Source: a virus. From it: a DNA stretch of 64,000 nt. A model generated the notes under the pieces. The model was given only the letters and a program-made list of their open reading frames with translations, ran no database searches and had not been told where the DNA came from. Location of the stretch: IMG/VR virus record IMGVR_UViG_3300035684_000002, positions 1-64,000 of that record, one strand, 5' to 3'. Positions 9,549 through 58,648 of the stretch are shown in pieces (the first letter of the stretch is position 1; the number at the start of each line of letters is the position of its first letter). Position numbers and translations under genes: made by a program.

Positions 9549-9993
9549 GCTGGTGGGCGAGCACTCGCGCCCCAGCGAGCCGGCCCCGGGAGGGGGTCGG
9601 GGCCGGCCGGCCAGGTCGACCCGCGGGCGGGTCGGTCGTGCGCTGCTGGGCGCTGTCCTGGTCGTCGCCCTGGCGGCGCTGGTCGTTACCGCGGTGCGCG
9701 CCGCCCAGCCGGCCGCGCCGCCGCCCGCGCGCGCCGGCCTGGTCGGCGCGTGCGACCAGCTGAGCGCCGACCTCGCCGCCGCCGGCTCGATGGCCGCGCT
9801 GCTCGACCTCGACGCGCGTAGCTGGTCGGCGGTGGCCGACCGTTACCGGGCCCGACTGGGTGCCGCCTTCGACCGCGGGGTCGGCGGGCTGCTGGCGTCG
9901 TCGACCCTGGGCGTGCTGTCGGAGCGGCGCACCGCGGTGCTCGCTGCGATCGAGTGGTGCCTGACCGTGGGGTGGGTCCCCCGTGCCACGTAG
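9535..9993 (+). CDS. membrane-anchored hypothetical protein
   Basis: Track ORF 152 aa. One TM segment (LLGAVLVVALAALVVTAV). Confidence 0.5.
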   Translation: MTAAELVGEHSRPSEPAPGGGRGRPARSTRGRVGRALLGAVLVVALAALVVTAVRAAQPAAPPPARAGLVGACDQLSADLAAAGSMAALLDLDARSWSAVADRYRARLGAAFDRGVGGLLASSTLGVLSERRTAVLAAIEWCLTVGWVPRAT

Positions 9994-11997: not shown

Positions 11998-12185
11998 GCG
12001 CGCGCAGCTGGGCCGTGCTGGGGCTGTGGTGCTCGCTGCTGGGCGCGAGCGCGTGCCTGGGCGTGCTGGTCGGGCACTGGGCGGCCGGCGGGCTGGCGGG
12101 TTCGCTGTGCACCGCGCTGCTGCTGCTGGTCGGCATCGACCTGCCCGACCGCGTGGCGCGCCGGGCTGAGCGGAGGACCGGCTGA
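11994..12185 (+). CDS. small membrane protein
   Basis: Track ORF 63 aa. Two TM segments. Coupled at both ends. Confidence 0.5.
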   Translation: MSARSWAVLGLWCSLLGASACLGVLVGHWAAGGLAGSLCTALLLLVGIDLPDRVARRAERRTG

Positions 12186-14765: not shown

Positions 14766-14775
14766 AGCCCCCACC

Positions 14776-20278: not shown

Positions 20279-22999
20279 ATGGCTGACACCCGCTCGACCA
20301 TCAACATCATCTTCGACGGGGCGACCAACGGGCTGACCGCCGCCGCCCGGGTCGCTGCTGCTGCGGTGTCCCAGGTAGGCGGGGTGCTGGCCAAGGTCGG
20401 CGCGGCCGGTGCTGCGGTGGCCGGCCTGGGCGCAGCTGCCGGTGCGCTCACCCAGCTGGCCGGTGCCGCACCGCTGGCGGTCGGCGCGATCGGTGCGCTG
20501 ATCGCGGCCAAGGCCACTTTCAAGATCGCTACGGCCGGGTTCACCGACGCGGTCGGCGGCGACGCCGAAGCCCTGGCCAGCCTGGCACCCGCCGCCCGCG
20601 AGGCGGCGGTGGCGGTCAAGGCGCTGAACGACGGCCCCATCAAGGGGCTGCGCCAGTCGGTGCAGCAGGCGTTCTTCGAGGGCTTCGCCGCCGACGTCAA
20701 CCAGCTGGCCGCCGCCTACATCCCCACCCTGACGAAGGGGATGACCGACGTCGCGAAGGGCTTCGCCTTCGTCCGCCAGCAGGCGGTGCAGGGGCTGATC
20801 CAGCCGTCCGCAGTGAACGACGTCAACGAGGTGCTGGCCGGCACGTCGGGCTTCCTGCGCGGCATCGGCTCCGGGGCCGGCGACGCGGTGCGCGGCCTGC
20901 TCGGGATGGCTGGGGTCGGCGCCACCTACCTGCCCGCCCTGGGCGAGGCGATCAACGGGGTGGCGCTGCGGTTCCGTACCTGGGTCGACGAAGGCGTCGA
21001 GTCGGGCGCGCTCAATGAAATGATCGACGGCGCTATCGCGGGATTCCAGTCGCTGGGCGCGATCGTCGTCAACATCGGCGCGATCATCGGTTCGATTTTC
21101 AGCGGCCTGGGCGCGAGCACGGAAAGCCCGCTGGCCAACCTCGAACGGCTGACCGGTCAGCTGCGCGAGTTCTTCGAAAGCGCCGCCGCGCAAGGTCCGC
21201 TGCAAGCCCTGGGCGAAACGCTCAGTTTGGTCTCGCAGGTGATGGGCGGCGTATTGATAAATGCGCTGCAAACCGTCGGGCCGATCATCGTCGCGCTGGC
21301 TCCGCTGGTGCAGTCGCTGGCGTTCGCATTCGGTGATCTGGTCAACGGATTGTTGAGCGCTTTCGGTCCGGCGATCGCTACAATTGCGGGCGCGCTTTCC
21401 ACGACCCTGGGTCCGGCCATCGAATTGATGGTGCTCGGATTCGTCGACATCGCCACCGCGCTGGGCCCCGTGATCGCCGCCTTGGCCGGCCCGCTGGCCG
21501 GGGTCCTCGCGGTCGTCGCCGACGTGATCGGCCAGGTGGCCACCGCCGCCGCCCCCGTGGTCGCCGCGCTCGAACCGCTGGTCGCCATGCTGGGCCAGGC
21601 GCTGCTCACCGCGGTCTCCGCCCTGGCGCCGATCATCACCCAGCTGGCCACCATCTTTTCGACGCTCTTCGTCGGCGCGCTCACTGCGCTACAGCCGCTG
21701 TTCGCCGCGCTTCTCCCGGTGATCGAGCAGCTGGCCGCCATGCTGGCCGAGCAGCTGACCATTGCGCTGGCCGCGATCACTCCCATTATCCCGATCATCA
21801 TCGACGGATTCACCCAGCTGGTGAATGCGGTAATTCCGCTGATTCCCATCGTGACGAATCTCGCGATGACCGTCATTCCTCCGCTGGTCGCTGCCTTCGT
21901 TTCCGTCGTGCCCGCGATCGCTCCGATGATTACTGCCATTGTTTCGATCGCGACGACGGTCATTCAGGTGATCACGCCTATCGTGCAGTTCGTCGCTGAC
22001 GTGATCGCCGCTTTCGCGAATCTCGCTGCGACGGTGATCCCGGTTATCGTCAACTTCGTGACCACGGTCATTCAGTTCTTCCTTAACCTGGTGAATACCG
22101 TCCTGACGAATGTGTCGGGATTCCTGACGAACATCATTTCGATCTTCACCACACTGGCCTCGACTGCGATTTCTATTTTCACCACGCTGGTCGGAAACGT
22201 CATCGCCTTCTTCACCCAGCTGGCGACGACCGTGGTCGGGCTCGCGGGCAACCTGGTAAACGGCGTCGTCAATTTCGTCTCGGCGTTGCCCGGCCAGGTC
22301 ATGGGCTTTATCACCGGTCTGGTCAACGATGCGGTTCAGGCGTTCCGCGACTGGGTGACCCGGGCCGGCCAGGCGGTCAACGACCTGGTCAACACCGTGG
22401 TCCGGTTCCTGCAAGGTCTGCCGGGACGTGTCGCGGAAATCGCCGGGAACATCGTCAACAGTTTTGTCGACGGGATCAAGGCCGGCATTGGCAAGGTCGG
22501 CGAGGCGGCGCGGAACCTGGCGCAGTCCGCATGGGATTCACTGCAAAACGCACTCGGCATCGCGAGCCCGTCGAAGCTGATGCGCTACGGCGGGCGCATG
22601 ACCGGCGAGGGCTTCGAGCTGGGCATCATCGACTCGACCAGCGGCGTGATCGCCAGCGCCCGGGCGATGGGGCTCGCCGCCCAGTCGGCGGCCATCGAGC
22701 CGTTGCAGAACCTGGGCGCGGTGGTCGACACCTCGCTGGGCCAGCTCGCCACCGCTGCATCGTTCAGCGTGGGCGGCGCGGCCCCAGGATCGTCGCTGAC
22801 GCCCGACGCCGGACCGGCCGCGGCTCCGGTCACCGCCGAGCAGCTGGCCGCTCTGCTGCTCGCTCAGCGGGCCCAGGCGGTCGAGGTCACCGTGCTGCTC
22901 GACGGCGAGCCGGTGCGCGCCACGGTGCGGACCCAGATCGCCGAACAGGATCGCGAGACGGTGCGCCGTGCGCGCGTCGGCACGGGGGTGTCGTTCTAG
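20279..22999 (+). CDS. tape measure protein
   Basis: Track ORF 906 aa. Long Ala/Gly/Val/Ile-rich helical repeats and hydrophobic blocks. Position is consistent. Confidence 0.88.
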   Translation: MADTRSTINIIFDGATNGLTAAARVAAAAVSQVGGVLAKVGAAGAAVAGLGAAAGALTQLAGAAPLAVGAIGALIAAKATFKIATAGFTDAVGGDAEALASLAPAAREAAVAVKALNDGPIKGLRQSVQQAFFEGFAADVNQLAAAYIPTLTKGMTDVAKGFAFVRQQAVQGLIQPSAVNDVNEVLAGTSGFLRGIGSGAGDAVRGLLGMAGVGATYLPALGEAINGVALRFRTWVDEGVESGALNEMIDGAIAGFQSLGAIVVNIGAIIGSIFSGLGASTESPLANLERLTGQLREFFESAAAQGPLQALGETLSLVSQVMGGVLINALQTVGPIIVALAPLVQSLAFAFGDLVNGLLSAFGPAIATIAGALSTTLGPAIELMVLGFVDIATALGPVIAALAGPLAGVLAVVADVIGQVATAAAPVVAALEPLVAMLGQALLTAVSALAPIITQLATIFSTLFVGALTALQPLFAALLPVIEQLAAMLAEQLTIALAAITPIIPIIIDGFTQLVNAVIPLIPIVTNLAMTVIPPLVAAFVSVVPAIAPMITAIVSIATTVIQVITPIVQFVADVIAAFANLAATVIPVIVNFVTTVIQFFLNLVNTVLTNVSGFLTNIISIFTTLASTAISIFTTLVGNVIAFFTQLATTVVGLAGNLVNGVVNFVSALPGQVMGFITGLVNDAVQAFRDWVTRAGQAVNDLVNTVVRFLQGLPGRVAEIAGNIVNSFVDGIKAGIGKVGEAARNLAQSAWDSLQNALGIASPSKLMRYGGRMTGEGFELGIIDSTSGVIASARAMGLAAQSAAIEPLQNLGAVVDTSLGQLATAASFSVGGAAPGSSLTPDAGPAAAPVTAEQLAALLLAQRAQAVEVTVLLDGEPVRATVRTQIAEQDRETVRRARVGTGVSF

Positions 23000-24474
23000 T
23001 GCCACGCCGCAACCTGATCATCAACCCCGCGCTCAAGGTCGACGACGGGCACTGGTTCCCCGGTGTGTGGAACCGTACCGCCGCCGCACACCCCACCCTG
23101 CCCCGTACCACCGCGCTCGAAGGCACCACCGCCGGCCAGGTCGTGTGCGCACGCGCCGACGTGGTGGCCGGCAAGTACTACGTGTTCAGCGTCAGCATCC
23201 GGGCGATCGCCCCGATGACCGGCAGCCTGGGCATCGACTGGCGCACCAGCGGCAACGTCTTCCTGTCGAGCACCAGCGGCGCGGGTTCGGATTACGGCGT
23301 GGTCAACATGACCGCCGGCTCTACCCAGCGGTTCGCGGTCATCGGCCAGGCGCCGACCGACGCCGGACGCTGCACGCCGGTCATCAACGGGATGGACGCG
23401 GGCGGTGCGCAGGTCACCGCCGCGATGCTGCGCGAGTTCGACACCCTGGGCGACGCCACCATCGCGATGGAAGCCGACCGGCTGGCGTCGGGGTACTTCG
23501 ACGGCGACAGCACGTCGGCCAGCTGGGACGGCAGCAACGGGGAGTCGACCTCGACCAGCACGCTGGGCGACCCGGCCGCCGGCCTGGTCCGCTTCGGCGC
23601 GGTCACCATCGGCGGCGTCGGCGTGCGGACCAGCTTCGGGTCCGGGTCGCTCAGCTTCGGCGATGTCTCGATCGCCACCGGGCTGATCGCCACCGCGACC
23701 TACGACCCGCGGCGCGGGCGCTTCCGTATCGACGCCGTCGGGCTCTCGACCAGCGTCCTGCGGTGCGTCGTCTACAGCCGTCCGGTCGGGCGCTCGCGCT
23801 GGTCGGAGGTGCGCGGCGGCAAGGTCGGGGTCAACGTCGGCCAGCAGCGGTTCGCCCGCAAGGTCGACGACTACGAGTTCACCGCGGGCGTGCCGATGCA
23901 GTACCGGGTCGTGGCGCTGGCCAGCGCGGAGAACCAGCCCGACGTGATCGTGCAGCAGCGGGTCATCGACGCCGACCAGCTGGCGCCTGACGAAGTGTGG
24001 ATCAAGTTCATCGCTGCGCCGGCCAGCAACCGGAGGGTCTTCCTGCACGACTGGTCCGACATCGACCACGACGCGCGCAACGTGCTGCACCACGTGCGCG
24101 GGCGGCCCGACCCGATCGCGGTCACCGACGTGCACAGCGCGGCGACGATGACCGTCGAGGTGGTCACCCCCACCCGGGCTGAGCGCGAGGCGCTGCGCAC
24201 CTCGCTGCGCCAGGGTGCGCCGGTGTTCTTTCAGACACCCGACTCGATCGAGTGCCCGTCGATGTACGCGGTGGTCGGATCGTTCAAGGTCAGCCGGCTC
24301 TCGCGCGACAGCGTGCGCTCGCTGTTCACCATCCCGCTGACGGAGGTCGCTCCGCCGCCGCCGTCGGTCGTCGGCGTGGCGGTCACCTGGGCATCGCTGC
24401 GCGAGCGCTACGCCAGCTGGCAGGAACTGGCCGACGACCCCGCGCTGTCGACCTGGCGGGACGTGAGCACCTGA
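22999..24474 (+). CDS. minor tail protein (distal-tail-like, with N-terminal carbohydrate-binding-like module)
   Basis: GTG 22999 is in frame with track ORF 22531..24474. Directly follows the tape measure gene. Confidence 0.7.
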   Translation: MPRRNLIINPALKVDDGHWFPGVWNRTAAAHPTLPRTTALEGTTAGQVVCARADVVAGKYYVFSVSIRAIAPMTGSLGIDWRTSGNVFLSSTSGAGSDYGVVNMTAGSTQRFAVIGQAPTDAGRCTPVINGMDAGGAQVTAAMLREFDTLGDATIAMEADRLASGYFDGDSTSASWDGSNGESTSTSTLGDPAAGLVRFGAVTIGGVGVRTSFGSGSLSFGDVSIATGLIATATYDPRRGRFRIDAVGLSTSVLRCVVYSRPVGRSRWSEVRGGKVGVNVGQQRFARKVDDYEFTAGVPMQYRVVALASAENQPDVIVQQRVIDADQLAPDEVWIKFIAAPASNRRVFLHDWSDIDHDARNVLHHVRGRPDPIAVTDVHSAATMTVEVVTPTRAEREALRTSLRQGAPVFFQTPDSIECPSMYAVVGSFKVSRLSRDSVRSLFTIPLTEVAPPPPSVVGVAVTWASLRERYASWQELADDPALSTWRDVST

Positions 24475-26384
24475 TGGGCTGGCCGGTCTCCGCGCGGTTC
24501 CGCGACGCCATCGGCGGAACCCACCGCGCCGTCGCCCGGGTCCGGCTGCTGCGGACGATCCAGTTCGGGCCCGACCCGGTGGGCGGCGTCGAGTTGCCGT
24601 TGCTCGACGCGAACGTGCGGCGCAACGCGACGTCGGACATCAAGGCGACGCTGGCGGCCACCGTGCCCGGCGACTACTTCGACGACCTCGCCCCCTACGG
24701 CGTCGAGCTGTTCGCCGAACGCGGCGTCGACTTCGGGGACGGGACGCGCGAGTTCGTGCCGCTGGGCTACTTCCGGGTCGACCAGCTCGACCAGGGCTCG
24801 ATGCCCTACGGGCCGATCAGCGTCGACGCCTCCGACCGCATCGCGCAGCTGATCCAGTCCCGGGTGATCTACCCCTACCAGGTCACCGCCGGCACCTCGC
24901 ACCGCGCGATCTTCAACACCCTGGTCAACGGCAGCAACACCGGTGCCGGCACCTACGGGATGTACGTCGGGGTCACCGTCCCCATCGACTGGACCGACGC
25001 GGGCTACAACCCCGACACGGAGCTGCTGACGACCGACGTCGTGGTCGACGACAGCGTCTACGACTTCCTGGCCAAGCTGGTCGACGCGAAGGGGTGCGTC
25101 ATCACCGCGAAGCGCACCGGCGAGCTGGCGGTGGTCAACCGCAACCCCCCGATCGACTCGCCCCCCGACATCACGCTGCGCGAGGGTCGCACCGGCACGC
25201 TCACTCAGGCCAGCCGGCGGATCAGCCGCGACGGGGTCTACAACATCGTGCGCGCCACCGGCAGCGACCCCGCCACCCAGACCGGCTACCGGTTGGCCTA
25301 CATCACCGACCCCGCCAACCCGCTGCGCTGGGATGGGCTCTTCGGGCCGGCGGTGCGCTACCTCGCCAGCCCGGTGCTCACCACGTCGGACGAAGCCGAC
25401 GCCGCTGCGGAGACGATGCTGGCCCGCGCCACCGGGCTACCTGTCGAGCAAGGATTGTGGGTCGTGCCCGACCCCAGCATCGACCCGCTGGACATCGCCC
25501 GCGTCGAGGTCGCCACGCTCGCGCCCGGGACGCACACCCTCGACGAACTGACCGTGCCGCTGACCGGCGGTGGCGCGGTGCAGATCCGCACCCGCACGCT
25601 CAACCCGGTGCCGCAGAACCCCACCGACCCGGAACCGGAGCCGACCCCGGACCCGGAGCCCGACCCGGACCCCGGGCCCAACCCCACGCCCGGCGGGGGC
25701 AGCGCGAGCGACGGCACCCAGGCGGCGCTGGTCCGCGGCTGGGGACCGGTGATCTTCCGGGACGAGTTCGACTACACCGGCCGCCCCGACCCCGCGAAGT
25801 GGGGGCTGTACGACGGCCCCGGTCACGCGGGCAACGGGCGCCGCAGCCCGTCGGCGTTCCACGTGCACGACGGGATGATGACCATCACCGGCACGGCGAA
25901 CGGGGTCAGCGGCGGCACCGCGTGCCGGCACCGCACCGGCCGGGGCTACCGCGCGGAAATGCGCTGCCGCGTTTACAACACCGCGAACAACGGCAGCCGA
26001 CGATACCACCCAGTGCTTATTCTGTGGCCCGACAACAACCAGTGGCCCGAAGGCGCGGAGTACGACTTTCTTGAGACGGACGAAGGGTCGGGCGAGTTCG
26101 GGCTATTTATGCACCTGCCCAACCACAGCCCTTACCGCCAGGACCACGAATCGTTTCCGCTCGATATCCAGAACTGGCACAACTACGCGGTCGAGTGGAA
26201 CCCGGCAGCCCGCACACTGAAAGCGTTCGTCGACGGTAAGCAGGTCTACAGCGGTAGCGGCCGGGTCGCCGACGCACCCGGCCCCATGCACCTGACGATC
26301 CAGCTCGACCACTTCGGCGGCACGCCCCGCGACGCGAAGTTCGACACCGCCTGGGTCCGCATCTACGAACGGCCGAATGCGTGA
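24474..26384 (+). CDS. minor tail protein with C-terminal GH16/concanavalin-like domain
   Basis: ATG 24474 (TGATG overlap), in frame with track ORF 24252..26384. The C-terminal domain contains EYDFLE (ExDxxE). Confidence 0.7.
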   Translation: MGWPVSARFRDAIGGTHRAVARVRLLRTIQFGPDPVGGVELPLLDANVRRNATSDIKATLAATVPGDYFDDLAPYGVELFAERGVDFGDGTREFVPLGYFRVDQLDQGSMPYGPISVDASDRIAQLIQSRVIYPYQVTAGTSHRAIFNTLVNGSNTGAGTYGMYVGVTVPIDWTDAGYNPDTELLTTDVVVDDSVYDFLAKLVDAKGCVITAKRTGELAVVNRNPPIDSPPDITLREGRTGTLTQASRRISRDGVYNIVRATGSDPATQTGYRLAYITDPANPLRWDGLFGPAVRYLASPVLTTSDEADAAAETMLARATGLPVEQGLWVVPDPSIDPLDIARVEVATLAPGTHTLDELTVPLTGGGAVQIRTRTLNPVPQNPTDPEPEPTPDPEPDPDPGPNPTPGGGSASDGTQAALVRGWGPVIFRDEFDYTGRPDPAKWGLYDGPGHAGNGRRSPSAFHVHDGMMTITGTANGVSGGTACRHRTGRGYRAEMRCRVYNTANNGSRRYHPVLILWPDNNQWPEGAEYDFLETDEGSGEFGLFMHLPNHSPYRQDHESFPLDIQNWHNYAVEWNPAARTLKAFVDGKQVYSGSGRVADAPGPMHLTIQLDHFGGTPRDAKFDTAWVRIYERPNA

Positions 26385-37697: not shown

Positions 37698-38104
37698 GTC
37701 ACCACCACCCAGCTGACGGGCGGGGGCTCTGGCAACCACCACCACGCGGGCGCGTCGTAGACGCGCGGTGTGCCGACCTGCTGCTGGTGCTCGACGACCC
37801 CGTGGCGCGCCAGCTGGTCGAGCGGCGGCGGGATCTCCCGGCCCAGCTTCGACCACCGGCCCACCCAGTACCAGCGCAACAGCGCGGCGTTGCGCACGCA
37901 CGGGTGCTCGATCACCGCCGCGCACCGCTCGATGCTGTAGAGGTCGCGACCCAGGGTCTGCCCCGGCCAGCCGAACGGGTCGTCGGCGTAGTCGTGGATG
38001 CTGGGCCCGTCGACCCGCGGTAGCTCGACGTGGTGCATGGCGTCGTGCAGTTCGAGCAGCTTCCCGTTCGCCACCCCGCCGACCATGTAGACGCTGCGGG
38101 TCAC
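37694..38104 (-). CDS. hypothetical protein
   Basis: GTG 38104 (GTGA overlap), in frame with track ORF 37694..38194. Confidence 0.55.
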   Translation of the reverse strand: MTRSVYMVGGVANGKLLELHDAMHHVELPRVDGPSIHDYADDPFGWPGQTLGRDLYSIERCAAVIEHPCVRNAALLRWYWVGRWSKLGREIPPPLDQLARHGVVEHQQQVGTPRVYDAPAWWWLPEPPPVSWVVVT

Positions 38105-38325
38105 CGGTCGGCCCCCCGGCCCTCGCCCTTGATGATCAGGGCGACCAGCTCCGCGGAGCACCGCACTTCGCTGGCGATCGCGGCGTAGGTCCACCGGCCG
38201 GGGTCGTCAGCGCGCAGCTGGCGGATCAGCCGGTTGCGTTCGGCCCGGTGCTCTGCTGCTCGCGACACGGCCGTGCCCGCGAGCTGGTGCAGCTCGCGGG
38301 CACGGGTCGCGCGGACGTCCGCCAT
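38101..38325 (-). CDS. small helix-turn-helix DNA-binding protein
   Basis: Track ORF 74 aa. WTYAAIASEVRCSAELVALIIKG looks like an HTH. Confidence 0.6.
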   Translation of the reverse strand: MADVRATRARELHQLAGTAVSRAAEHRAERNRLIRQLRADDPGRWTYAAIASEVRCSAELVALIIKGEGRGADR

Positions 38326-38331
38326 GGTCGA

Positions 38332-40017
38332 TCAGACCTGGCCGGCGGAGAAGTCGCGCAGCAGGGTCGGCACCGCGCCGTCGAAGCCGGACACGTCGAG
38401 CTGGCCGGGGTCGTCGGGGTCGGCGATGCTGAACCGGGTCGGGGTCAGCGCGACGACCGCGAGCCGGGCCGCCGGGTTGATCTCGCGCCGGTACCGGGCG
38501 AGCGCCTGGTGCGGGTGCACCCCGCCGGCCCAGGTCTCGTTGTCGGTGTAGATCACGAACGTGTCGAACACCTTGCCCTTGACGGTGGCCCACGTCATCG
38601 GCAGCGCGCAGTCGGTGCCGCCGAAGGGCAGCCCGGAGATCGCGGCCACGTTGTCGTCGAGCCGGCGGCGGGGCGACAGGTCGAGCGGGGTCAGCGTCGC
38701 CTCGCCGAAGACGCGCGCCGCCCGGCTGCTGCCGGAGGTGAACCCGACGACCTCGCACCCGGGCTCCGTCGCCATCGTCACCAGCGCCATGGCGGCACTG
38801 GCCTCGCGGCACGACAGCAGGGTGCCACCGGCCGGGCTGCCCATCGAGCCGGACACGTCGAGCGCCAGCAGCGTGCGCTTGCCGGCCGGCTCGACCGTCT
38901 CGAACGCGGCGTAGAACCCGGCATCGAGCGCGTCGACCAGCTCGCGCTTCGGCTGCCAGGTCGACGACCCGGCGAGGCTGTGCCCGCTGGCGTAGGTGCG
39001 CTGGGCGAGCAGCAGGGCGACGGGGTGGATGCGCCCGCGCCGCAGCTGCTCGCGGTCGGTCAGCCGGCGGATCACCGTCGCCAGCACCTCGCGGTCGTCG
39101 AGCACGCCGACCCGGGTCAGGCGGGGCAGCTGGCGCAGCAGCGCGCCGATCGGCATCCCGTTGTCGATCATCGCGCGCCAGACCTGGGCGTGACCCAGCG
39201 CGGCGTCGGGCAGCGCCTCCCACGGCAGCCGGAAGTTCTGCACCAGTCCGGCCCAGCCGGGTCCGGCGGTGGCGGGGCTGCGGTCGTGGTCGATCGCCTG
39301 GGCGGCGAGGTGCCCGCGGATCACAGCCGGCAGTGCGTCGGACTGGTCGAGCCCCAGGTGGCCGGTCGCCCAGGCGAGCGCGGCGCGGCGCGCGGCGTCG
39401 TCGTCGGTGGCGGTGCCGACCTTCGGGTGCGCGAGGCGCAGCAGGTCGCGGTGCGACCAGCCCTCGCGCTGGCGGTACTTCACCAGCTGGTACGCCAGCG
39501 AGTCGGCGTCGAAGTTGTCGGCGGCGTACCAGGCGGCGATCGCCCGGCGCAGCCCGCGGCCCCACCCGCGGAACTGCTCGACGTAGCCGGCGAAGGTGAA
39601 CAGGGTCGAGCCGGTGCGGCAGACCTGCGGCACCGCGGTGAGCGCCGCCGACCGGGCGGCGTCGTCGCCCAGCCCGGCCACCGCCGCCAGCGCGAAGATG
39701 GCGGGCTGCTGGCGGAGCGCGCGCCCGGCGAGGCTGACGGCCACGACCTGCTCGACCAGCCAGCTGCCGCGCTCGCGGGCGGCGGTCAGGATGACGTCGG
39801 CGTTGTCCTTCGTGGTCTCGCGCTCGCCGACGTAGAACGTGCCACCGGCCGTGCCCAGGGTGAGGAACCGGTGCACGCGGGTATCGGCGCTGACGTCGAA
39901 GACGAAGCCCCCCGCGCTGTTGCGCACCTGGCGCGGGTCGGCCGGCTGGCTCTGCGGGGTGGCGCGGGTGTTGATCGTCGCGAGCGGGTCGCTGGTGCGG
40001 GTCGAGCTGCGGGCCAC
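38332..40017 (-). CDS. rsr: Ro60 orthologue Rsr (TROVE domain + vWA/MIDAS)
   Basis: Track ORF 561 aa. QVRNSAGGFVFDV...RFLTLGTAGGTFYVGE matches the conserved Ro N-terminus. C-terminal LLALDVSGSMGS MIDAS motif. Y-RNA-like genes lie directly upstream. Confidence 0.9.
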   Translation of the reverse strand: MARSSTRTSDPLATINTRATPQSQPADPRQVRNSAGGFVFDVSADTRVHRFLTLGTAGGTFYVGERETTKDNADVILTAARERGSWLVEQVVAVSLAGRALRQQPAIFALAAVAGLGDDAARSAALTAVPQVCRTGSTLFTFAGYVEQFRGWGRGLRRAIAAWYAADNFDADSLAYQLVKYRQREGWSHRDLLRLAHPKVGTATDDDAARRAALAWATGHLGLDQSDALPAVIRGHLAAQAIDHDRSPATAGPGWAGLVQNFRLPWEALPDAALGHAQVWRAMIDNGMPIGALLRQLPRLTRVGVLDDREVLATVIRRLTDREQLRRGRIHPVALLLAQRTYASGHSLAGSSTWQPKRELVDALDAGFYAAFETVEPAGKRTLLALDVSGSMGSPAGGTLLSCREASAAMALVTMATEPGCEVVGFTSGSSRAARVFGEATLTPLDLSPRRRLDDNVAAISGLPFGGTDCALPMTWATVKGKVFDTFVIYTDNETWAGGVHPHQALARYRREINPAARLAVVALTPTRFSIADPDDPGQLDVSGFDGAVPTLLRDFSAGQV

Positions 40018-40101
40018 GGTGGGCCACCTTCCTGTCGGGGTGTGAGGTTTCCGTTCGAGCTACTTCGTCGGGTGGTGGTGCAGACAGCAAAACAGGCCGG
40101 G

Positions 40102-40219
40102 CTCGCGGGCGTGGTGCAGCATCCGATTGCGCGGGGTGTAGCTCCGCGGTCGTCCTCGCTCCGCCGAAGCGGAGGTCTGACGGACGATTTCTGATAACCG
40201 AATGCATCCGGCCCGCGAG
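40102..40219 (-). ncRNA. Y-RNA-like module 4 (no tRNA-like domain)
   Basis: Closing stem CTCGCGGGC/GCCCGCGAG. 5-prime strand GGGCCGGATGCATTCGGTTATCAGAA, 3-prime strand CACCACGCCC. Internal CTCCGC-TTCG-GCGGAG hairpin. Followed by TGTTTTG. Confidence 0.6.
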
Positions 40220-40237
40220 GACCGACCTGCTGTTAGC

Positions 40238-40306
40238 GAACGGGCGTGTTGCTGGCTGCCGGTGGATTCCATCGCAAGGGGTAACCGACGGCCGTCCGGC
40301 CCGTTC
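40238..40306 (-). ncRNA. Y-RNA-like module 3 (minimal, 69 nt)
   Basis: Closing stem GAACGGGC/GCCCGTTC. GGGCCGGACGGCCGTCGGTTACC ... CAACACGCCC. Confidence 0.6.
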
Positions 40307-40315
40307 TCATTAGCA

Positions 40316-40421
40316 GGTCGGGCATGGGAGTGAGCACCGGATGCCCCGCCGAAGGGGCGCACCCCCGTAGGCGGGGGTGTCAGGAATCGAACCAGATAAC
40401 CGATCCTCGATCGGCCCGACC
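40316..40421 (-). ncRNA. Y-RNA-like module 2 with degenerate permuted tRNA-like domain
   Basis: Closing stem GGTCGGGC/GCCCGACC. CGGTTATC. T-arm-like TCTGG-TTCGATT-CCTGA. Acceptor-like 8 bp stem CACCCCCG/CGGGGGTG closed by CCTA. Short D-like hairpin. Confidence 0.6.
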
Positions 40422-40438
40422 TTCGTTATATAGTTAGT

Positions 40439-40567
40439 GCACGGGCGTGTTAGTGGTACCGGTAAAGGTGCTCTGCCAACTGAGCTACGTCGCCCGAAGA
40501 CGACGGCGGGATTCGAACCCGCGGCCACCCCGTTATCAGCGGATAACCGATCCCGTCCGGCCCGTGC
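40439..40567 (-). ncRNA. yrlA: YrlA-type Y RNA (module 1) with complete circularly permuted tRNA-like domain
   Basis: Closing stem GCACGGGC/GCCCGTGC. GGGCCGGACGGGATCGGTTATC. T-arm GCGGG-TTCGAAT-CCCGC. Acceptor CGTCGTC-TTCG-GGCGACG. TA + D-arm GCTC-AGTTGGCA-GAGC. The 5-prime end coincides with the predicted +1. Confidence 0.75.
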
Positions 40568-40615
40568 GTCAGCGACTGTAGTGCACTACAGCCGGGCACG
40601 CAACATAGGGGTTAG
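40568..40615 (-). promoter_or_regulatory. promoter of the Y RNA-rsr operon, with a distinct palindromic operator (cassette C)
   Basis: -35 TTGCGT (40598-603), 17 nt spacer, -10 TACAGT (40575-80). The spacer holds the perfect 16 bp palindrome CTGTAGTGCACTACAG (40576-91). Upstream site CTAACCCCTATGTTGCG. Confidence 0.6.
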
Positions 40616-40679
40616 GTATCCGGGCTGACCTGCGGGTACACCCTCGACGGGACCGCACCATCACGGAGGTGAGCAGGTC

Positions 40680-40865
40680 GTGGTCAGCGCAGCAGGTGGC
40701 CGCAAGGGGTACGTGGTCAAGTCGAGGCACGACGCCTACCGGAAGATCAAGGCCGGGGGGGCGAGCAAGTCGAAGGCGGCGGCGATCGCGAACGCGGGGC
40801 GCACCGCGGCCGGGCGCAAAGCGATGGCCCGCAAGGCGGCTGCGACCCGGCGCCGTCGCGGGTAG
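40680..40865 (+). CDS. small basic Lys/Ala/Arg-rich protein
   Basis: Track ORF 61 aa. GTG after GGAGG. Followed by a 40 bp palindromic terminator. Confidence 0.55.
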   Translation: MVSAAGGRKGYVVKSRHDAYRKIKAGGASKSKAAAIANAGRTAAGRKAMARKAAATRRRRG

Positions 40866-40882
40866 CTCGCGACGGCCGGACA

Positions 40883-40922
40883 CGACGAAGCCCCCGCACC
40901 AGCTGGTGCGGGGGCTTCGTCG
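40883..40922. terminator. perfect 40 bp palindrome, bidirectional terminator (copy 1)
   Basis: CGACGAAGCCCCCGCACCAG/CTGGTGCGGGGGCTTCGTCG. Its 36 bp core is repeated at 55111-55146. Confidence 0.6.
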
Positions 40923-40962
40923 ACGCTGGCACCCGATCGAAGGGACCAGCCGTCAGCGTAGC

Positions 40963-41229
40963 TCAGGTGCGGCGCCGGTACCCGGGCGGCGCGCCCAGCC
41001 GGTCGGCGCCGTAGGCGAACGCGGCCCGGCTGTCCTGGTGGCCGCCGCCCCGGTTGGGCAGCTGGCCGGCGGTCGCGGCGTAGTCGGCGATCTCGCGCCA
41101 GCTGCGCACCGGTTCGTGCTCGCACCAGACGCAGCCGCCTTCGAGGCACGTCGCATCCGGGGCCGGCCAGCAGATCGGGCGCCCGCGCCGGGTCACCTGC
41201 TCGCGGTTCAGCGCCACGTCCGCCCCCAC
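40963..41229 (-). CDS. hypothetical Cys-containing protein
   Basis: Track ORF 88 aa. Start uncertain (GTG 41229 or 41217). Confidence 0.45.
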   Translation of the reverse strand: MGADVALNREQVTRRGRPICWPAPDATCLEGGCVWCEHEPVRSWREIADYAATAGQLPNRGGGHQDSRAAFAYGADRLGAPPGYRRRT

Positions 41230-41366
41230 GCTGCCGGCCCGTCAGCGGGACGACCGCACTCCGGGTACCAGCCGTCCCGGCGCCAGACGTAGGCCAGCAC
41301 CGCGCCGGTCACCAGCCCGCGGAGCACGAAGCCGGCCAGCCCGGCGAGCAGCAGCCGGCGGTTCAC
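41208..41366 (-). CDS. 52-aa membrane peptide (tentative)
   Basis: GTG 41366 (GTGA overlap with the upstream stop), in frame with track ORF 41208..42155. TM segment LLLAGLAGFVLRGLVTGAVLAYV. Confidence 0.4.
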   Translation of the reverse strand: MNRRLLLAGLAGFVLRGLVTGAVLAYVWRRDGWYPECGRPADGPAAWGRTWR

Positions 41367-56498: not shown

Positions 56499-58256
56499 TC
56501 AGCCGGTCCGGGCCAGACGGTCGTTCATCCGGGTGACGGCGATCAGGTCGGACAGCTCGCCCGCGCGGTAGCGCTCCGGCTCGCGGATGCCGACGCCGCG
56601 CGCCTTGCCGATCAACTTCGGCGAGGGCGGGCGCTTGCGCCAGCTGCGGTCGCGCTGGGTCAGCATGTCCGCGTCGGCGCCCGCATTGGCCCGGGCCCAG
56701 CGCTCGCCCGCGGCGATCGCCTGGTCGAAGGTCACGCCGTTGACGATGCGCTGGCCGTCGCCCTCACGGAGCCGGGGCCCGACGTGGCCGACCTTCCACA
56801 GCCCGTCACTGCGCTCCCAGAGCACGACGTACCGGTCGCCCGCCGGCAGGAACGGGATGCCATCCTGGTTGGCCAGCCAGCGCGTCTTCGACTCGCGCAG
56901 CACCAGGTCGAGCGTTTCGTAGTAGGCCGGCCCGACCAGCTTCGGCGGTTCCTCGCGCTCGCGCCCGGTCCCGACCGGCGCGCACATGCACGCCCGGCCG
57001 ACCTGGTGGCACGCCGAGCAGGGCACCCGTTCCAACGGGGTGTCGTCGTAGCGGGCGCCGGGCACCAGGTGCACCAGCGCGCACAGCTGCTGCCCGCGGC
57101 TGGCACCAACCACGTCGAGCACCAGGCAGTCGAGCTTGCCGACCCAGGGCGCGGGCCGCAGCCCGCGCCCGACGATCTGCGTATACAGCCCGGGCAGCTT
57201 CGTCGGCCGGGCCATCAGCACGCACTCGACCTCCGGGCAGTCCCACCCTTCGGTCATCACCATGACCCCGACCAGCACCCGGATGACCCCGGCCGCCAGC
57301 TCGCGGTAGATGCGCTGGCGGTCGCGCTCCGGCGTGGTGCCGGTGATGACGGCGACCGGGACGCCCCGGCCGACGAACTCGGCGGCGAGCGCCTGGGCGC
57401 TGGCCACGTTCGGGGTGAAGGCGGCGGTGAGCCGGCCGGCGGGGTGCGCGCTGTCGACCGCTTCGGCGAACCAGGCGTCGACGATCTGGTCGACATCCTG
57501 GGTGACCATGTCGCCCAGTTCGTCGTCGGCGTAGTCGCCGCTGGCCTTGCTGACCTTCGCGCTGTCGAGGTCGACGTGGCTGGCCACGACGACCTTGCCG
57601 TAGGGCTCGACCAGCCAGCCACAGTCGATGGCCCAGCCGATGTCGCGGCGGAAGGGCACGTCGAGGAACGTGCGGCCCAGCTGGTACTTGTCCCCGCGGG
57701 TCAGGGTCGCGGTGACCCCGACCAGCCGGGCCCCGTCCTGCTCGAAGCACCGCAGCCAGTCGAGGATCATCCGGTTGCCCGGGGCGGCGGCGTGGTGGCA
57801 CTCGTCGTAGACCACGACGTCGAAGGCGGGTCGGCCGTCCCGGCGGCGCAGCCCGGTGCGCTTGCGCCGGGCCTCGCCGCGCTTGCTGCCCAGCGTCGAG
57901 GTCATCGCCTCGACGATCGGGTAGCCGTCGCGGTGGCCGTCGCCGTCGATGCGTCCGTGCGGGATCGAGGGGTCGTGCGCGCGGATGCGCTCGGTGATCT
58001 GGTCGAGCAGCACCCCGCGGTGCGCGAGGTTGAGCACGGCGTTGCCCTGGCGGGCTTCGTGCACCGCGACCGCGCCGATGATGTCGGTCTTCCCGCAGCC
58101 GGTCGGCAGCACGATGGCACGGCGGCGCTTCTCCTCCCAGCTGCCGGCGGCGCTCTCGCGGGCGTCGCCCAGGTAGAGCGCGTCGACCGCGCCGGCCTGG
58201 TAGTCGCGCAGCTCGCGCAGCGTCGGGGCGCGCGGGACTGTCGGACGGGGGGTCAC
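56499..58256 (-). CDS. SF2 DEAD/DEAH-box DNA helicase
   Basis: GTG 58256 follows GGAACGGAGACG and is in frame with track ORF 56499..58577. Motifs LPTGCGKT, DECHH, TATL, QIVGRGLR. Confidence 0.88.
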   Translation of the reverse strand: MTPRPTVPRAPTLRELRDYQAGAVDALYLGDARESAAGSWEEKRRRAIVLPTGCGKTDIIGAVAVHEARQGNAVLNLAHRGVLLDQITERIRAHDPSIPHGRIDGDGHRDGYPIVEAMTSTLGSKRGEARRKRTGLRRRDGRPAFDVVVYDECHHAAAPGNRMILDWLRCFEQDGARLVGVTATLTRGDKYQLGRTFLDVPFRRDIGWAIDCGWLVEPYGKVVVASHVDLDSAKVSKASGDYADDELGDMVTQDVDQIVDAWFAEAVDSAHPAGRLTAAFTPNVASAQALAAEFVGRGVPVAVITGTTPERDRQRIYRELAAGVIRVLVGVMVMTEGWDCPEVECVLMARPTKLPGLYTQIVGRGLRPAPWVGKLDCLVLDVVGASRGQQLCALVHLVPGARYDDTPLERVPCSACHQVGRACMCAPVGTGREREEPPKLVGPAYYETLDLVLRESKTRWLANQDGIPFLPAGDRYVVLWERSDGLWKVGHVGPRLREGDGQRIVNGVTFDQAIAAGERWARANAGADADMLTQRDRSWRKRPPSPKLIGKARGVGIREPERYRAGELSDLIAVTRMNDRLARTG

Positions 58257-58648
58257 GGTCGGTCGTCTCCGTTCCGGTCGGTCGAGCAGAGCAGCGCGGC
58301 GCCGCCGGCCCGCAGCCAGCCGACCAGCGCCGCCGCCTCGCGCCGGTCGTGCTCGCACTCCGCGAGGGCGATCGAGGCCGGGTTGTCGAGCGCGGTCGCG
58401 GCTGCGGTGGCGGCGGTCAGCTGAGCGCGCGCCGCCTCGCGCCGCTCGAAGGTGCCGTAGGCGTCGAAGCGCTCGCGGTGCACGCCGCCGCCGCGCAGCG
58501 GCTGGCCTTCGCGGGCGACGCGCTCGCGCGAGCTGGGCTGGTTGCGCAGGTGGTCGGGGACCCGCGCGCCGACGCACGGGCTGCCGGCCGCCTGGTCGCA
58601 GGTGGGGCAGCGCACGTGCTCGACGGCGAGCTGGCTCCGGGTGGTCAC
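58253..58648 (-). CDS. hypothetical protein with N-terminal zinc-finger-like motif
   Basis: GTG 58648 (GTGA overlap), in frame with track ORF 58253..58918. CPTCDQ...C. Confidence 0.55.
   Translation of the reverse strand: MTTRSQLAVEHVRCPTCDQAAGSPCVGARVPDHLRNQPSSRERVAREGQPLRGGGVHRERFDAYGTFERREAARAQLTAATAAATALDNPASIALAECEHDRREAAALVGWLRAGGAALLCSTDRNGDDRP

What the first reader, a model, noticed from the sequence alone, without database searches (positions are those of the whole stretch)
38332..40615. Phage-borne Ro60 (Rsr) gene preceded by four tandem Y-RNA-like genes under one promoter
What the sequence shows:
- The 561-aa ORF has the conserved Ro/TROVE N-terminus (QVRNSAGGFVFDV..RFLTLGTAGGTFYVGE) and a vWA MIDAS motif (DVSGSMGS).
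- The 466 nt between its SD and the nearest promoter contain no credible ORF.
- That stretch resolves into four consecutive modules (40567-40439, 40421-40316, 40306-40238, 40219-40102, minus strand).
- Each module is closed by an 8-9 bp terminal stem.
- Each carries the same strand-specific signature. The 5-prime strand reads GGGCCGGAYG..CGGTTAYC, with module 2 deviating to GGGCCGATCG. The 3-prime strand reads (A)CACGCCC in modules 1, 3 and 4; module 2 keeps only GCCC.

Comparison from memory: this resembles the conserved Ro-binding helix of metazoan Y RNAs (GGUCCGA..GGUUAUC on the 5-prime strand). Module 4 even reads GGUUAUCAGAA, as I recall hY4 does.

Predicted start: the predicted +1 of the promoter falls on the first base of the module 1 stem.

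Established background: bacterial Rsr/Y-RNA RNPs are known (Deinococcus, Salmonella YrlA/YrlB), and rsr occurs in some actinophages.

What is unusual here:
- Four paralogous modules, apparently made as one precursor.
- They are separated by short AU-rich spacers (ACUAACUAUAUAACGAA, UGCUAAUGA) that look like processing sites in an otherwise ~70% GC genome.
- They lie in the same minus-strand gene string as a terminase-like nuclease.
Basis: partly seen in the sequence, partly recalled or inferred. Interest (0 to 1): 0.9.

Follow-up and report, generated by a model that had tools for sequence, protein, structure and literature searches.

The report
Phage Ro60 gene with four Y RNAs
A 73%-GC phage genome carries a Ro60 (Rsr) gene preceded by four tandem Y-RNA genes that start at their own promoter; this is a real and well-formed example of a known bacterial and phage Ro60/Y-RNA system, not a new kind of system.

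Summary

**What is there**
- ORF 38332-40017(-) is a Ro60/Rsr protein with TROVE and vWA_Ro60 domains and an E-value of 1e-110 to the solved Deinococcus Rsr structure.
- The 466 nt upstream contain exactly four modules with one architecture:
  - an 8-9 bp closing stem ending GGGC/GCCC, then a bulged C;
  - a G-C or G.U pair;
  - a 3-nt/7-nt internal loop;
  - a 9-10 bp second helix ending CGG(U);
  - then UAUC and a variable domain.

**Support for the modules**
- A covariance model built only from other phage and bacterial loci ranks M3, M2 and M4 as the three best hits in the 64-kb window. It scores M1 at 38.9 bits.
- M1 also matches Rfam YrlA at 39.5 bits, the same range as published actinobacterial YrlA RNAs. 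It has the T-arm, acceptor-like hairpin and D-arm in YrlA order.
- Both helices covary across 146 relatives.

**Why it is less novel than claimed**
- Phage Ro60 with Y RNAs is published (Chen 2014; phiLo 2025), as is YrlA/YrlB processing from one precursor.
- Arrays of 3-6 modules recur in many public Ro60 loci.

**Extra finding**
- A palindromic operator over the -10 co-occurs with a small HTH gene after Ro60.

The parts
40598..40603 (-). -35-like hexamer TTGCGT (3/6 to TTGACA), 17 nt upstream of the -10
   Evidence: Read directly. It was not called by the sigma-70 scan. BearBQ has CTGCGC at the same place. This is weak evidence on its own.
40576..40591 (.). Perfect 16-bp palindrome CTGTAGTGCACTACAG overlapping the -10; candidate operator
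   Evidence: Unique in the window even with 3 mismatches allowed. TGTA-N6-TACA(G/C)T is found upstream of the first module in 29 of 44 loci that have the small HTH gene, and in 1 of 116 loci without it.
40575..40580 (-). -10 hexamer TACAGT (TANNNT type); predicted +1 about 7 nt downstream at G40567
   Evidence: TACAGT or TACACT sits 6-9 nt before the first module stem in BearBQ, L076, L123, L073, L177 and L202.
40439..40567 (-). Module 1 (129 nt): YrlA-class Y RNA. Ro-binding stem plus tRNA-like domain: V-like hairpin, T-arm GCGGGUUCGAAUCCCGC, 7-bp acceptor-like hairpin with UUCG loop, UA linker, D-arm GCUCAGUUGGCAGAGC.
   Evidence: Rfam YrlA 39.5 bits, E 4.6e-7, full model 1-114. Model R1 38.9 bits, E 2.4e-6. 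Anatomy.
40422..40438 (-). Spacer 1, ACUAACUAUAUAACGAA (24% GC): candidate processing site
   Evidence: TAACT, ATAAC, ACTGA and CTGAA are 15-100x enriched just 3' of modules in other high-GC loci.
40316..40421 (-). Module 2 (106 nt): YrlB-like Y RNA with a T-arm-like hairpin (UCUGGUUCGAUUCCUGA) and two GC-rich hairpins. G10.U replaces G10-C.
   Evidence: Model R1 34.4 bits, E 2.8e-6, the 2nd best hit in the window. Fold z-score -2.8. Anatomy.
40307..40315 (-). Spacer 2, UGCUAAUGA
40238..40306 (-). Module 3 (69 nt): minimal Y RNA, two helices plus a 20-nt loop
   Evidence: Model R1 44.9 bits, E 6e-9, the best hit in the window. The model was built without any window sequence.
40220..40237 (-). 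Spacer 3, GCUAACAGCAGGUCGGUC
   Evidence: Compare L073's spacer gctaactgaacagcag.
40102..40219 (-). Module 4 (118 nt): Y RNA with a 10/10-bp second helix and two long hairpins, no T-arm
   Evidence: Model R1 17.8 bits, E 0.04, the 3rd best hit in the window. Fold z-score -4.0. Weak hit to nematode sbRNA family RF01656.
40018..40101 (-). Leader of the Ro60 mRNA with SD GGAAGG (about 40027-40032); no terminator called
38332..40017 (-). Ro60/Rsr coding sequence (561 aa, GTG start)
38101..38325 (-). 74-aa gene directly after Ro60; homolog of a phage-annotated helix-turn-helix DNA-binding protein; candidate regulator of the cassette
   Evidence: 53% identity, E 4e-23 to Gordonia phage BearBQ gp42, which also follows its Ro-like gene. 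Homologs follow Ro60 in 29 of the first 151 loci. GC3 is 0.89.

Best explanation
This is a phage-encoded Ro60/Y-RNA cassette.

**Proposed sequence of events**
1. A promoter (-10 TACAGT, overlapped by a 16-bp palindromic operator) starts transcription at or within a base or two of the first nucleotide of module 1.
2. One transcript runs through four Y-RNA modules, the Ro60 (rsr) gene and a small HTH gene.
3. Each module folds locally into the Ro60-binding element: a closing stem ending GGGC/GCCC, a bulged C, a G-C or G.U pair, an asymmetric 3/7-nt loop, and a second helix ending CGGU/ACCG followed by UAUC.
4. Host endonucleases cut in the short A/U-rich spacers. RNase P may also act at the 7-bp acceptor-like hairpin of M1. 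This releases four Y RNAs.
5. Each Y RNA binds the outer surface of the phage Ro60 ring through the shared stem. Each presents a different effector domain: tRNA-like in M1, T-arm only in M2, a minimal loop in M3, and long hairpins in M4.
6. By analogy with D. radiodurans Rsr/Yrn1/PNPase and Thermus phage phiLo, the RNPs would couple Ro60 to host PNPase or other RNA-handling enzymes. They would also gate access of RNA substrates to the Ro60 cavity during infection.
7. The HTH protein probably binds the palindrome and sets the level of the cassette.

**Shown here**
- Ro60 identity.
- Module architecture.
- Family membership and covariation.
- Linkage to Ro60.
- Conserved -10/operator position.

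**Inferred**
- Transcription as one unit.
- Processing.
- Ro60 binding.
- Effector recruitment.
- HTH-operator interaction.
For: **Ro60 identity.**

**Four modules with one architecture.**

**Independent covariance model.** Model R1 was built from 11 modules of other loci.
- It puts M3 (44.9 bits), M2 (34.4) and M4 (17.8) as the top three of all hits in the window.
- It scores M1 at 38.9 bits.
- It finds 151 hits at E<=1e-3 in 765 kb, nearly all directly upstream of Ro60 on its strand.

**Covariation.**
- 95.6% of cells are paired, against 69% in shuffles and 37-48% when the partners are slid. 17 of 18 pairs show compensatory changes.
- RNAalifold on a plain MAFFT alignment recovers the same two helices, with 11 of 16 pairs compensatory.

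**Linkage to Ro60.** Strong modules are about 29x enriched within 1.3 kb upstream of Ro60.

**M1 as YrlA.**
- It matches Rfam YrlA over the full model.
- Its score is in the range of the published Gordonia (45.2 bits) and cluster C phage (36.1 bits) YrlA-like RNAs.

**Not coding.**

**Promoter and operator conservation, and HTH co-occurrence.**

**Precedents.**
- One precursor for YrlA and YrlB, and RNase P/CCA processing of a 7-bp acceptor-stem YrlA, in M. smegmatis (PMC4201824; preprint 10.1101/312249).
- A phage Ro60 that binds two upstream Yrl RNAs and host PNPase (PMC12135203).
Against: - There are no expression, end-mapping or binding data. The host is unknown, because the source is a metagenome contig.
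- No Rfam family reaches its gathering score in the window.
- M4's model score is marginal (E 0.04).
- The metazoan Y_RNA model gives no hit at E<=10.
- No relative is closer than 58% Ro60 identity. Covariation is therefore family-wide, not for this array's own orthologs.
- The alignments used for covariation were selected for pairing or fitted to the model.
- In the MFE fold of the whole 571-nt precursor, M1 and M2 are not cleanly separate.
- The single-module fold z-scores of M1 (-1.7) and M3 (-2.0) are modest.
- The -35 is poor.
Confidence: 0.8

Rival explanations
1. The four modules are a cis-acting structured leader of the rsr mRNA. Ro60 binds its own 5' UTR, for autoregulation or mRNA stabilisation, and the modules are not released as free small RNAs.
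For: - The modules lie between the promoter and the Ro60 start, with no terminator called.
- Only 84 nt separate M4 from the start codon.
- The spacers are very short, 9-18 nt.
Against: - In the one tested relative with this layout, M. smegmatis, both upstream RNAs accumulate as discrete Rsr-bound species cut from a precursor (PMC4201824).
- In L040 the modules lie downstream of Ro60. In Salmonella the Y RNAs are encoded 3' of rsr. The position relative to the start codon is therefore not conserved.
- Distinct effector-type domains, including a complete tRNA-like one, are not needed for a leader.
Confidence: 0.12
2. The region is a decayed or unusual tRNA gene array, and the resemblance to Y RNAs is secondary.
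For: - Rfam tRNA gives sub-threshold hits at 40498-40570 (24 bits) and 40372-40494 (20 bits).
- The V-like hairpin of M1 has an anticodon-like loop, CUGAUAA.
- GenBank annotates the equivalent element of prophiGD43A-5 as tRNA-Thr and that of Myrna as tRNA-Asp.
Against: - ARAGORN finds no tRNA in the window.
- Both Rfam tRNA hits are below the gathering score of 29 bits.
- In M1 the D-arm lies 3' of the T-arm and the acceptor stem is a closed hairpin. This is the permuted YrlA order.
- M3 and M4 have no tRNA element at all, yet they share the stem signature.
Confidence: 0.03
3. The modules are chance GC-rich hairpins or a generic repeated extragenic element unrelated to Ro60.
For: The genome is 73% GC, and a loose structural scan gives many false hits: 319 in shuffled sequence against 687 real.
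Against: - The exact signature is found 4 times against 0 in shuffles, and only at this place.
- The model built from other loci ranks these modules first in 64 kb.
- The same modules sit next to Ro60 in well over 100 unrelated loci.
Confidence: 0.02

Closest known systems
Mycobacterium smegmatis rsr locus with YrlA and YrlB (Chen et al. 2014, RNA 20:1715; PMC4201824)
   Same: - The Y RNAs are upstream of rsr on the same strand and are made from one precursor.
- YrlA has a T-arm, a 7-bp acceptor-like hairpin and a D-arm.
- YrlB has only a T-arm.
- The paper's probe sequences imply ...CACACGCCC... in the YrlA 3' strand and UAUCUGG...GGUUCGA in YrlB. These match M1 and M2.
   Different: - There are four modules here instead of two.
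- The cassette is phage-borne.
- The 5' motif is GCCGGAYG or GCCGAUCG rather than strict GNCGAAN0-1G.
- There are no experimental data here.
Thermus phage phiLo Ro60 with Yrl1 and Yrl2 (NAR 2025, PMC12135203)
   Same: A phage Ro60 with Y-like RNAs directly upstream. These were shown to bind the phage Ro60 and to form a ternary complex with host PNPase.
   Different: - Two RNAs, not four.
- A distant host and a distant Ro60.
- phiLo did not appear among the tblastn matches listed or tallied by organism, of which 40 of 357 records were shown.
- No tRNA-like YrlA module is reported there, as far as I read.
Deinococcus radiodurans Rsr with Yrn1/Yrn2 and the Rsr-Y RNA-PNPase (RYPER) machine
   Same: - Several small RNAs are encoded upstream of rsr. 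Four were originally seen.
- Both strands of a metazoan-like bulged helix are retained.
- It is the closest solved Ro60 structure (2NVO, 3.5e-110).
   Different: - It is cellular and stress-induced (UV).
- The order of the tRNA-like arms in Yrn1 differs from YrlA.
Metazoan Y RNAs and nematode stem-bulge RNAs (Rfam RF00019, RF01656)
   Same: - A terminal stem with a bulged C followed by a G-C or G.U pair.
- 5' strand GGNCCGR...GGUUAUC.
- M4 shares GGUUAUCAGAA with hY4.
- There are weak full-length hits to RF01656 at M1 (21 bits) and M4 (18.6 bits).
   Different: - There is no hit to RF00019 at E<=10, and the RF01656 hits are below its gathering score of 38 bits.
- There is no pol III or La-type oligo-U end.
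- The modules are made as a polycistron.
Salmonella rsr-yrlBA-rtcBA operon
   Same: Ro60 with a tRNA-like YrlA plus a second Y RNA in one operon.
   Different: - In Salmonella the Y RNAs lie 3' of rsr.
- That operon is sigma-54/RtcR controlled and linked to the RtcB/RtcA RNA repair genes.
- No RNA-repair gene was found among the neighbouring ORFs scanned.

Membership tests
Ro60/Rsr protein | TROVE (HEAT-repeat ring) domain | tested here: met
   Pfam PF05731, 9.7e-47.
Ro60/Rsr protein | C-terminal vWA domain with MIDAS motif | tested here: met
   Pfam PF25045, 1.9e-57. DVSGSMGS is read.
Ro60/Rsr protein | Full-length similarity to experimentally characterised Ro60 proteins | tested here: met
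   - 2NVO 3.5e-110, 9NEN 8.6e-105, 1YVP 3.7e-100, each over nearly the full length.
- NCBIfam Rsr 494 bits. This is below the equivalog cut-off of 900, so the protein is a homolog, not a Deinococcus-type equivalog.
Bacterial YrlA-class Y RNA (Rfam RF02553), module 1 | Encoded within 4 kb of Ro60 on the same strand | tested here: met
   M1 ends 422 nt upstream of the Ro60 start, on the minus strand.
Bacterial YrlA-class Y RNA (Rfam RF02553), module 1 | tRNA-like domain in permuted order: T-arm, closed acceptor-like stem, UA linker, D-arm | tested here: met
   The cmscan alignment over model positions 1-114 shows all three hairpins with high posterior probability. The UA linker is present, as described.
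Bacterial YrlA-class Y RNA (Rfam RF02553), module 1 | Reaches Rfam's gathering score (69 bits) | tested here: not met
   39.5 bits. The published Gordonia polyisoprenivorans and cluster C mycobacteriophage YrlA-like RNAs also fail, at 45.2 and 36.1 bits. The threshold therefore excludes the actinobacterial branch as a whole.
Bacterial YrlA-class Y RNA (Rfam RF02553), module 1 | 5' strand motif GNCGAAN0-1G in the terminal stem | tested here: inconclusive
   M1, M3 and M4 read GCCGGAYG, one change (A to G). M2 reads GCCGAUCG. In the family alignment this position is G or A.
Y RNA in the functional sense (any module) | Bound and stabilised by Ro60; accumulates as a discrete small RNA | not testable with these tools
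   No expression or binding data exist for this metagenome contig.
Ro60-linked Y-stem module family defined here (model R1) | Two covarying helices with a bulged C, an asymmetric loop and CGGUUAYC | tested here: met
   - M3 44.9 bits, M1 38.9, M2 34.4 and M4 17.8.
- Geometry is identical in all four modules.
- Covariation is shown.
Metazoan Y RNA (Rfam RF00019) | Match to the covariance model | tested here: not met
   No hit at E<=10 in 39900-40750. The resemblance is limited to the Ro-binding stem.
tRNA | Cloverleaf in normal order, detected by tRNA finders | tested here: not met
   ARAGORN finds none in the window. Rfam tRNA scores 24 and 20 bits, below the 29-bit gathering score.
Polycistronic Y-RNA precursor (as in M. 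smegmatis) | Single promoter upstream of the first module and no terminator between modules and rsr | tested here: inconclusive
   - The -10/operator position is conserved.
- No terminator-like site is called.
- The -35 is weak, and no transcript data exist.

The most novel reading that the evidence does not exclude
Ro60 loci of actinophages and actinobacteria carry polycistronic libraries of Y-RNA adaptors.
- Each library has 3-6 modules drawn from four recurring classes: tRNA-like, T-arm only, minimal and long-hairpin.
- The modules are released at a conserved TAACTGAA-like spacer signal.
- The cassette is switched by a dedicated small HTH repressor that binds a TGTA-N6-TACA operator over the -10.
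- The window phage carries one module of each class, so a single Ro60 would be retargeted to several host partners during infection.
- A further speculation: the register-shifted tRNA-like hits across M1 and M2 would fit an origin of such arrays from tandem tRNA genes.
Probability: 0.3. Interest if true: 0.6.

Novelty: new member of a known kind. Interest (0 to 1): 0.4.

Why it matters
- **A clean test case.** The window gives an unusually legible natural example of a Ro60/Y-RNA cassette. Four different effector domains sit on one invariant Ro60-binding stem. There is a defined transcription start, short spacers and a likely dedicated regulator.
- **What it could be used for.** It would be a convenient construct for three questions: how bacterial and phage Y RNAs are processed, what each effector domain recruits, and what a phage gains from bringing its own Ro60 RNP.
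- **A wider pattern.** Arrays of 3-6 modules are common next to phage and actinobacterial Ro60 genes. I found no description of them in the literature I could search.
- **An annotation problem.** These arrays are unannotated or mis-annotated as tRNA in GenBank phage records, which matters for annotation.
- **No change to the framework.** The established picture of Ro60 and Y RNAs stands.

Tried and rejected
1. **Rfam at gathering thresholds over the whole window.** No hit. The evalue mode was needed.
2. **ARAGORN.** No tRNA or tmRNA. The tRNA reading was rejected.
3. **Sigma-70 and terminator consensus scan of 37900-41300.** Nothing was called. The promoter call rests on comparative evidence instead.
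4. **Search for close relatives, to test array-specific covariation.** I searched phage GenBank records, IMG/VR, one genome per GTDB species and JGI metagenomes. The best Ro60 identity was 58% and none shared the array. The exact-protein look-up returned only the source contig.
5. **First MAFFT alignments of short modules (A1, A2).** Gaps around the 5' loop were misplaced, so these were not used. A gap-free subset (A3) was used instead.
6. **A loose structural scanner.** It was too noisy in high-GC DNA, with 319 null hits against 687 real. Only the strict setting was used.
7. **The + strand ORF 40669-41292.** I first took it for a divergent gene. It has no codon bias. Only the 61-aa ORF 40680-40865 looks coding.
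8. **Family searches on the 74-aa HTH-like protein.** Pfam, PHROGs and NCBIfam gave nothing useful. Its annotation rests on the BearBQ homolog.
9. **One paper look-up failed.** The Annual Review on bacterial Ro60 is not held.


Full report
**1. What the sequence shows**

- The minus-strand ORF 38332-40017 (561 aa, GTG start) matches Pfam vWA_Ro60 (1.9e-57) and TROVE (9.7e-47).
- It aligns over nearly its full length with D. radiodurans Rsr (2NVO, 3.5e-110), a chain deposited as RNA-binding protein RO60 (9NEN, 8.6e-105) and X. laevis Ro60 (1YVP, 3.7e-100).
- It matches NCBIfam RNA-bind_Rsr at 3.4e-148.
- The window is phage DNA throughout:
  - primase/polymerase 1532-4033;
  - large terminase 9983-11722;
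  - portal 12185-13708;
  - protease and major capsid protein 13701-16449;
  - tape measure 20279-22999;
  - tail protein 24252-26384;
  - endolysin 32968-33882;
  - helicase 56499-58577;
  - exonuclease 61735-63225.
- It is part of a 73.8-kb contig of a metagenome assembly, JAXMNJ010891271.1.
- Homologs annotated 'Ro-like RNA binding protein' are found in 357 GenBank phage records, mostly Mycobacterium and Streptomyces phages. The best identity is 54%.

**2. The four modules**

- Between the Ro60 start and position 40567 there is no coding signal.
  - ORFs there have GC3 of 0.56-0.70, against 0.89-0.98 for the flanking genes.
  - The gene caller used on the public contig left the stretch empty.
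- The pattern GGGCCGRNYG-N3-4-TCGGTTAYC occurs four times in the 64-kb window, all here on the minus strand. It occurs in none of 100 shuffles.
- Anchored on that motif, each module has the same geometry:

| Element | Detail |
|---|---|
| Closing stem | 8-9 Watson-Crick pairs ending GGGC/GCCC |
| Bulge | one C |
| Next pair | G-C; G.U in M2 |
| 5' loop | 3 nt: GAC, AUC, GAC, GAU |
| 3' loop | 7 nt ending CA: ACUAACA, ACUCCCA, AGCAACA, UGCACCA |
| Second helix | 9-10 pairs with a conserved U.G and, in M1-M3, one central mismatch; ends CGG(U)/(A)CCG |
| After the helix | UAUC, opening a variable inner domain of 82, 59, 20 and 67 nt |

- The variable part of the closing stems and most of the second helix differ between the four copies, yet they stay paired.
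- The chance of finding each exact closing partner within 265 nt, estimated from its frequency in the window, is 0.01-0.08. The product is about 2e-6.

**3. Are they members of a real RNA family?**

*Linkage to Ro60*
- I collected Ro60 loci from IMG/VR (55), one-genome-per-species GTDB (80) and JGI metagenomes (80), plus 15 IMG/VR stretches found by the DNA motif alone.
- The motif-only stretches turned out to carry Ro60 just downstream wherever the contig extended that far.
- A strict structural scan did not require GGTTAYC. It found 135 modules within 1.3 kb upstream of Ro60 on its strand, against 47 in the ten-fold larger remainder. That is about 29x enrichment.
- 115 of 129 distinct modules nevertheless carry GGTTAYC or a one-base variant.

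*Independent covariance model*
- I built model R1 from 11 short modules of other loci only.
- With filters off, its three best hits in the window were M3 (44.9 bits, E 6e-9), M2 (34.4 bits, E 3e-6) and M4 (17.8 bits, E 0.04). The next hit scored 16.8 bits.
- In a 765-kb search, M1 scored 38.9 bits (E 2e-6). There were 151 hits at E<=1e-3, nearly all directly upstream of Ro60.

*Covariation*
- On the 146 distinct aligned hits, 95.6% of cells are paired. Shuffles give 69% and slid partners give 37-48%. 17 of 18 pairs show changes on both sides.
- The pair next to the bulge is only ever G-C (76) or G.U (67).
- That alignment is fitted to the model, so I also used the plain MAFFT seed alignment. 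RNAalifold predicts the same two helices, with 11 of 16 pairs compensatory. The counts are 96% paired against 70% shuffled.
- Those seeds had been chosen for pairing. The compensatory changes, not the percentage paired, are therefore the informative part.

**4. Module classes**

- M1 matches Rfam YrlA over the whole model (39.5 bits, E 4.6e-7).
  - It has a T-arm GCGGGUUCGAAUCCCGC, a 7-bp closed acceptor-like hairpin CGUCGUC-UUCG-GGCGACG, the UA linker and a D-arm GCUCAGUUGGCAGAGC.
  - This is the permuted order that defines YrlA.
- The score is below Rfam's gathering score of 69 bits. The YrlA-like RNAs that Chen et al. published from Gordonia polyisoprenivorans (45.2 bits) and from a cluster C mycobacteriophage (36.1 bits) are also below it. 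The threshold does not separate M1 from accepted members.
- M2 has only a T-arm-like hairpin. It begins UAUCUGG, like M. smegmatis YrlB as deduced from the published probe.
- M3 is a minimal stem-loop.
- M4 carries two long hairpins.
- Among 129 distinct strong modules, the classes are T+D 43, T only 38, short 31 and long-other 16. The window has one of each.

**5. Transcription unit**

- Upstream of M1 lies TTGCGT, then 17 nt, then TACAGT. G40567, the first base of the M1 stem, is 7 nt further on.
- The consensus scan does not call this promoter.
- A perfect 16-bp palindrome, CTGTAGTGCACTACAG, overlaps the -10 and is unique in the window.
- The same arrangement, TGTA-N6-TACA(G/C)T followed 6-9 nt later by the first module stem, is seen in Gordonia phage BearBQ and in many other loci.
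- The gene directly after Ro60 (38101-38325, 74 aa) is 53% identical (E 4e-23) to BearBQ gp42. That protein is annotated as a helix-turn-helix DNA-binding protein and also follows its Ro-like gene.
- Over 160 non-redundant loci, the palindrome and the HTH gene co-occur as follows:

| | Palindrome present | Palindrome absent |
|---|---|---|
| HTH gene present | 29 | 15 |
| HTH gene absent | 1 | 115 |

- These loci are related to one another, so this is not an independent-sample statistic. It does make an operator/regulator pair a reasonable hypothesis.
- No terminator-like site lies between the modules and Ro60.

**6. Spacers**

- The three spacers are ACUAACUAUAUAACGAA, UGCUAAUGA and GCUAACAGCAGGUCGGUC. 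All three start with (N)RCUAAY.
- In other high-GC loci, the 16 nt after a module are less GC-rich than the locus (56% against 67%).
- They are enriched for TAACT (7 seen, 0.07 expected), ACTGA (11 against 0.6) and CTGAA (11 against 0.7). An example is gctaactgaacagcag in L073.
It is not a demonstration.

**7. How it most likely works**

*Known from others*
- M. smegmatis YrlA and YrlB are cut from one precursor upstream of rsr and are bound by Rsr. The 7-bp acceptor stem of YrlA makes it an RNase P and CCA-adding substrate.
- D. radiodurans Y RNA tethers Rsr to PNPase.
- Thermus phage phiLo Ro60 binds two upstream Yrl RNAs and forms a complex with host PNPase.

*Inferred here*
- The window cassette is transcribed from the operator-controlled promoter as one RNA.
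- That RNA is cut in the spacers.
- The result is four Ro60-binding RNAs with different effector domains, which direct or gate the phage Ro60 during infection.

*Main alternative*
- The main alternative is a purely cis-acting leader, to which I give about 0.12.

**8. Novelty**

- The kind of system is known: YrlA-related RNAs next to Ro60 in 254 bacteria and 22 phages, and phiLo.
- Four modules is more than the two described per locus in phages and in most bacteria. I found no paper on larger arrays.
- Such arrays are nevertheless common in sequence data.
  - By the strict scan, 15 of 76 loci have at least 3 modules and 5 have 4-6 (L020 6, L014 5, L062 5, L058 4, the window 4).
  - By model R1, 17 of 80 loci have at least 3 hits.
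  - The isolated M. abscessus prophage prophiGD43A-5 has five modules by direct reading, with a GAAC(A)GGAC variant of the motif. The first is annotated as tRNA-Thr.
- The window is therefore a good new member of a known kind.

Noticed in passing
window 40576-40591 and 38101-38325; L151 1220-1240 and 3086-3301: The palindrome TGTA-N6-TACA(G/C)T over the -10 of the Y-RNA/Ro60 promoter co-occurs with a small HTH-like gene directly after Ro60. The counts over 160 loci are 29/15/1/115. This suggests a dedicated autoregulator of the cassette. I found no description of it.
   Followed up: partly
L233 (Mycobacterium phage prophiGD43A-5, MW584167) about 545-1275; also Myrna gene 166: Five Y-like modules with a variant motif GAAC(A)GGAC (bulged A) precede the Ro-like gene. 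The first is annotated tRNA-Thr(tgt) in GenBank. Myrna's tRNA-Asp also lies under a match to M1. These are probably YrlA-type tRNA-like domains mis-annotated as tRNAs.
   Followed up: partly
window 34396-35226 (-) and 35414-37063 (-): A DpdA / queuine tRNA-ribosyltransferase-like gene (Pfam DpdA 2.4e-71; phrog_1279) suggests 7-deazaguanine DNA modification. It lies next to a second large-terminase-like ORF (phrog_38, 1.2e-44) that is distinct from the packaging terminase at 9983-11722.
   Followed up: no
window 40422-40438, 40307-40315, 40220-40237; spacers in L001, L002, L071, L073, L076, L123: Spacers after modules share a (C)TAACTGAA(C/A)AG-like motif across unrelated high-GC loci. TAACT is about 100x enriched and CTGAA about 16x. 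This may be a conserved endonuclease site.
   Followed up: partly
window 40498-40570 and 40372-40494 (-): - Two sub-threshold Rfam tRNA hits lie in a register shifted relative to the modules.
- The first uses the leader plus the M1 5' half and the M1 T-arm. It has a perfect 7-bp GACG(c)ACG/CGUCGUC acceptor and an anticodon-like loop CUGAUAA.
- The second joins the M1 acceptor and D-arm to the M2 T-arm.
- This is compatible with the published idea that YrlA arose from tandem pre-tRNAs.
   Followed up: no
window 40680-40865 (+): A 61-aa very basic ORF with SD GGAGG and GC3 0.90 is transcribed away from the Y-RNA promoter. It has a weak DUF7218 match (E 0.003). The same ORF was called by the public gene caller. 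The 112-bp gap between it and M1 would hold divergent promoters.
   Followed up: partly
L040 4671-4987; L060 730-4857: In L040, four modules lie downstream of Ro60 instead of upstream. In L060 (a 211-kb viral contig), three modules are spread over 4 kb with no Ro60 in the fetched stretch.
   Followed up: no
L058 1377-1508: A phage module scores 36.1 bits against the nematode stem-bulge RNA family RF01656, whose gathering score is 38 bits. This shows how close the phage Ro-binding stem is to eukaryotic Y and sbRNA stems.
   Followed up: no
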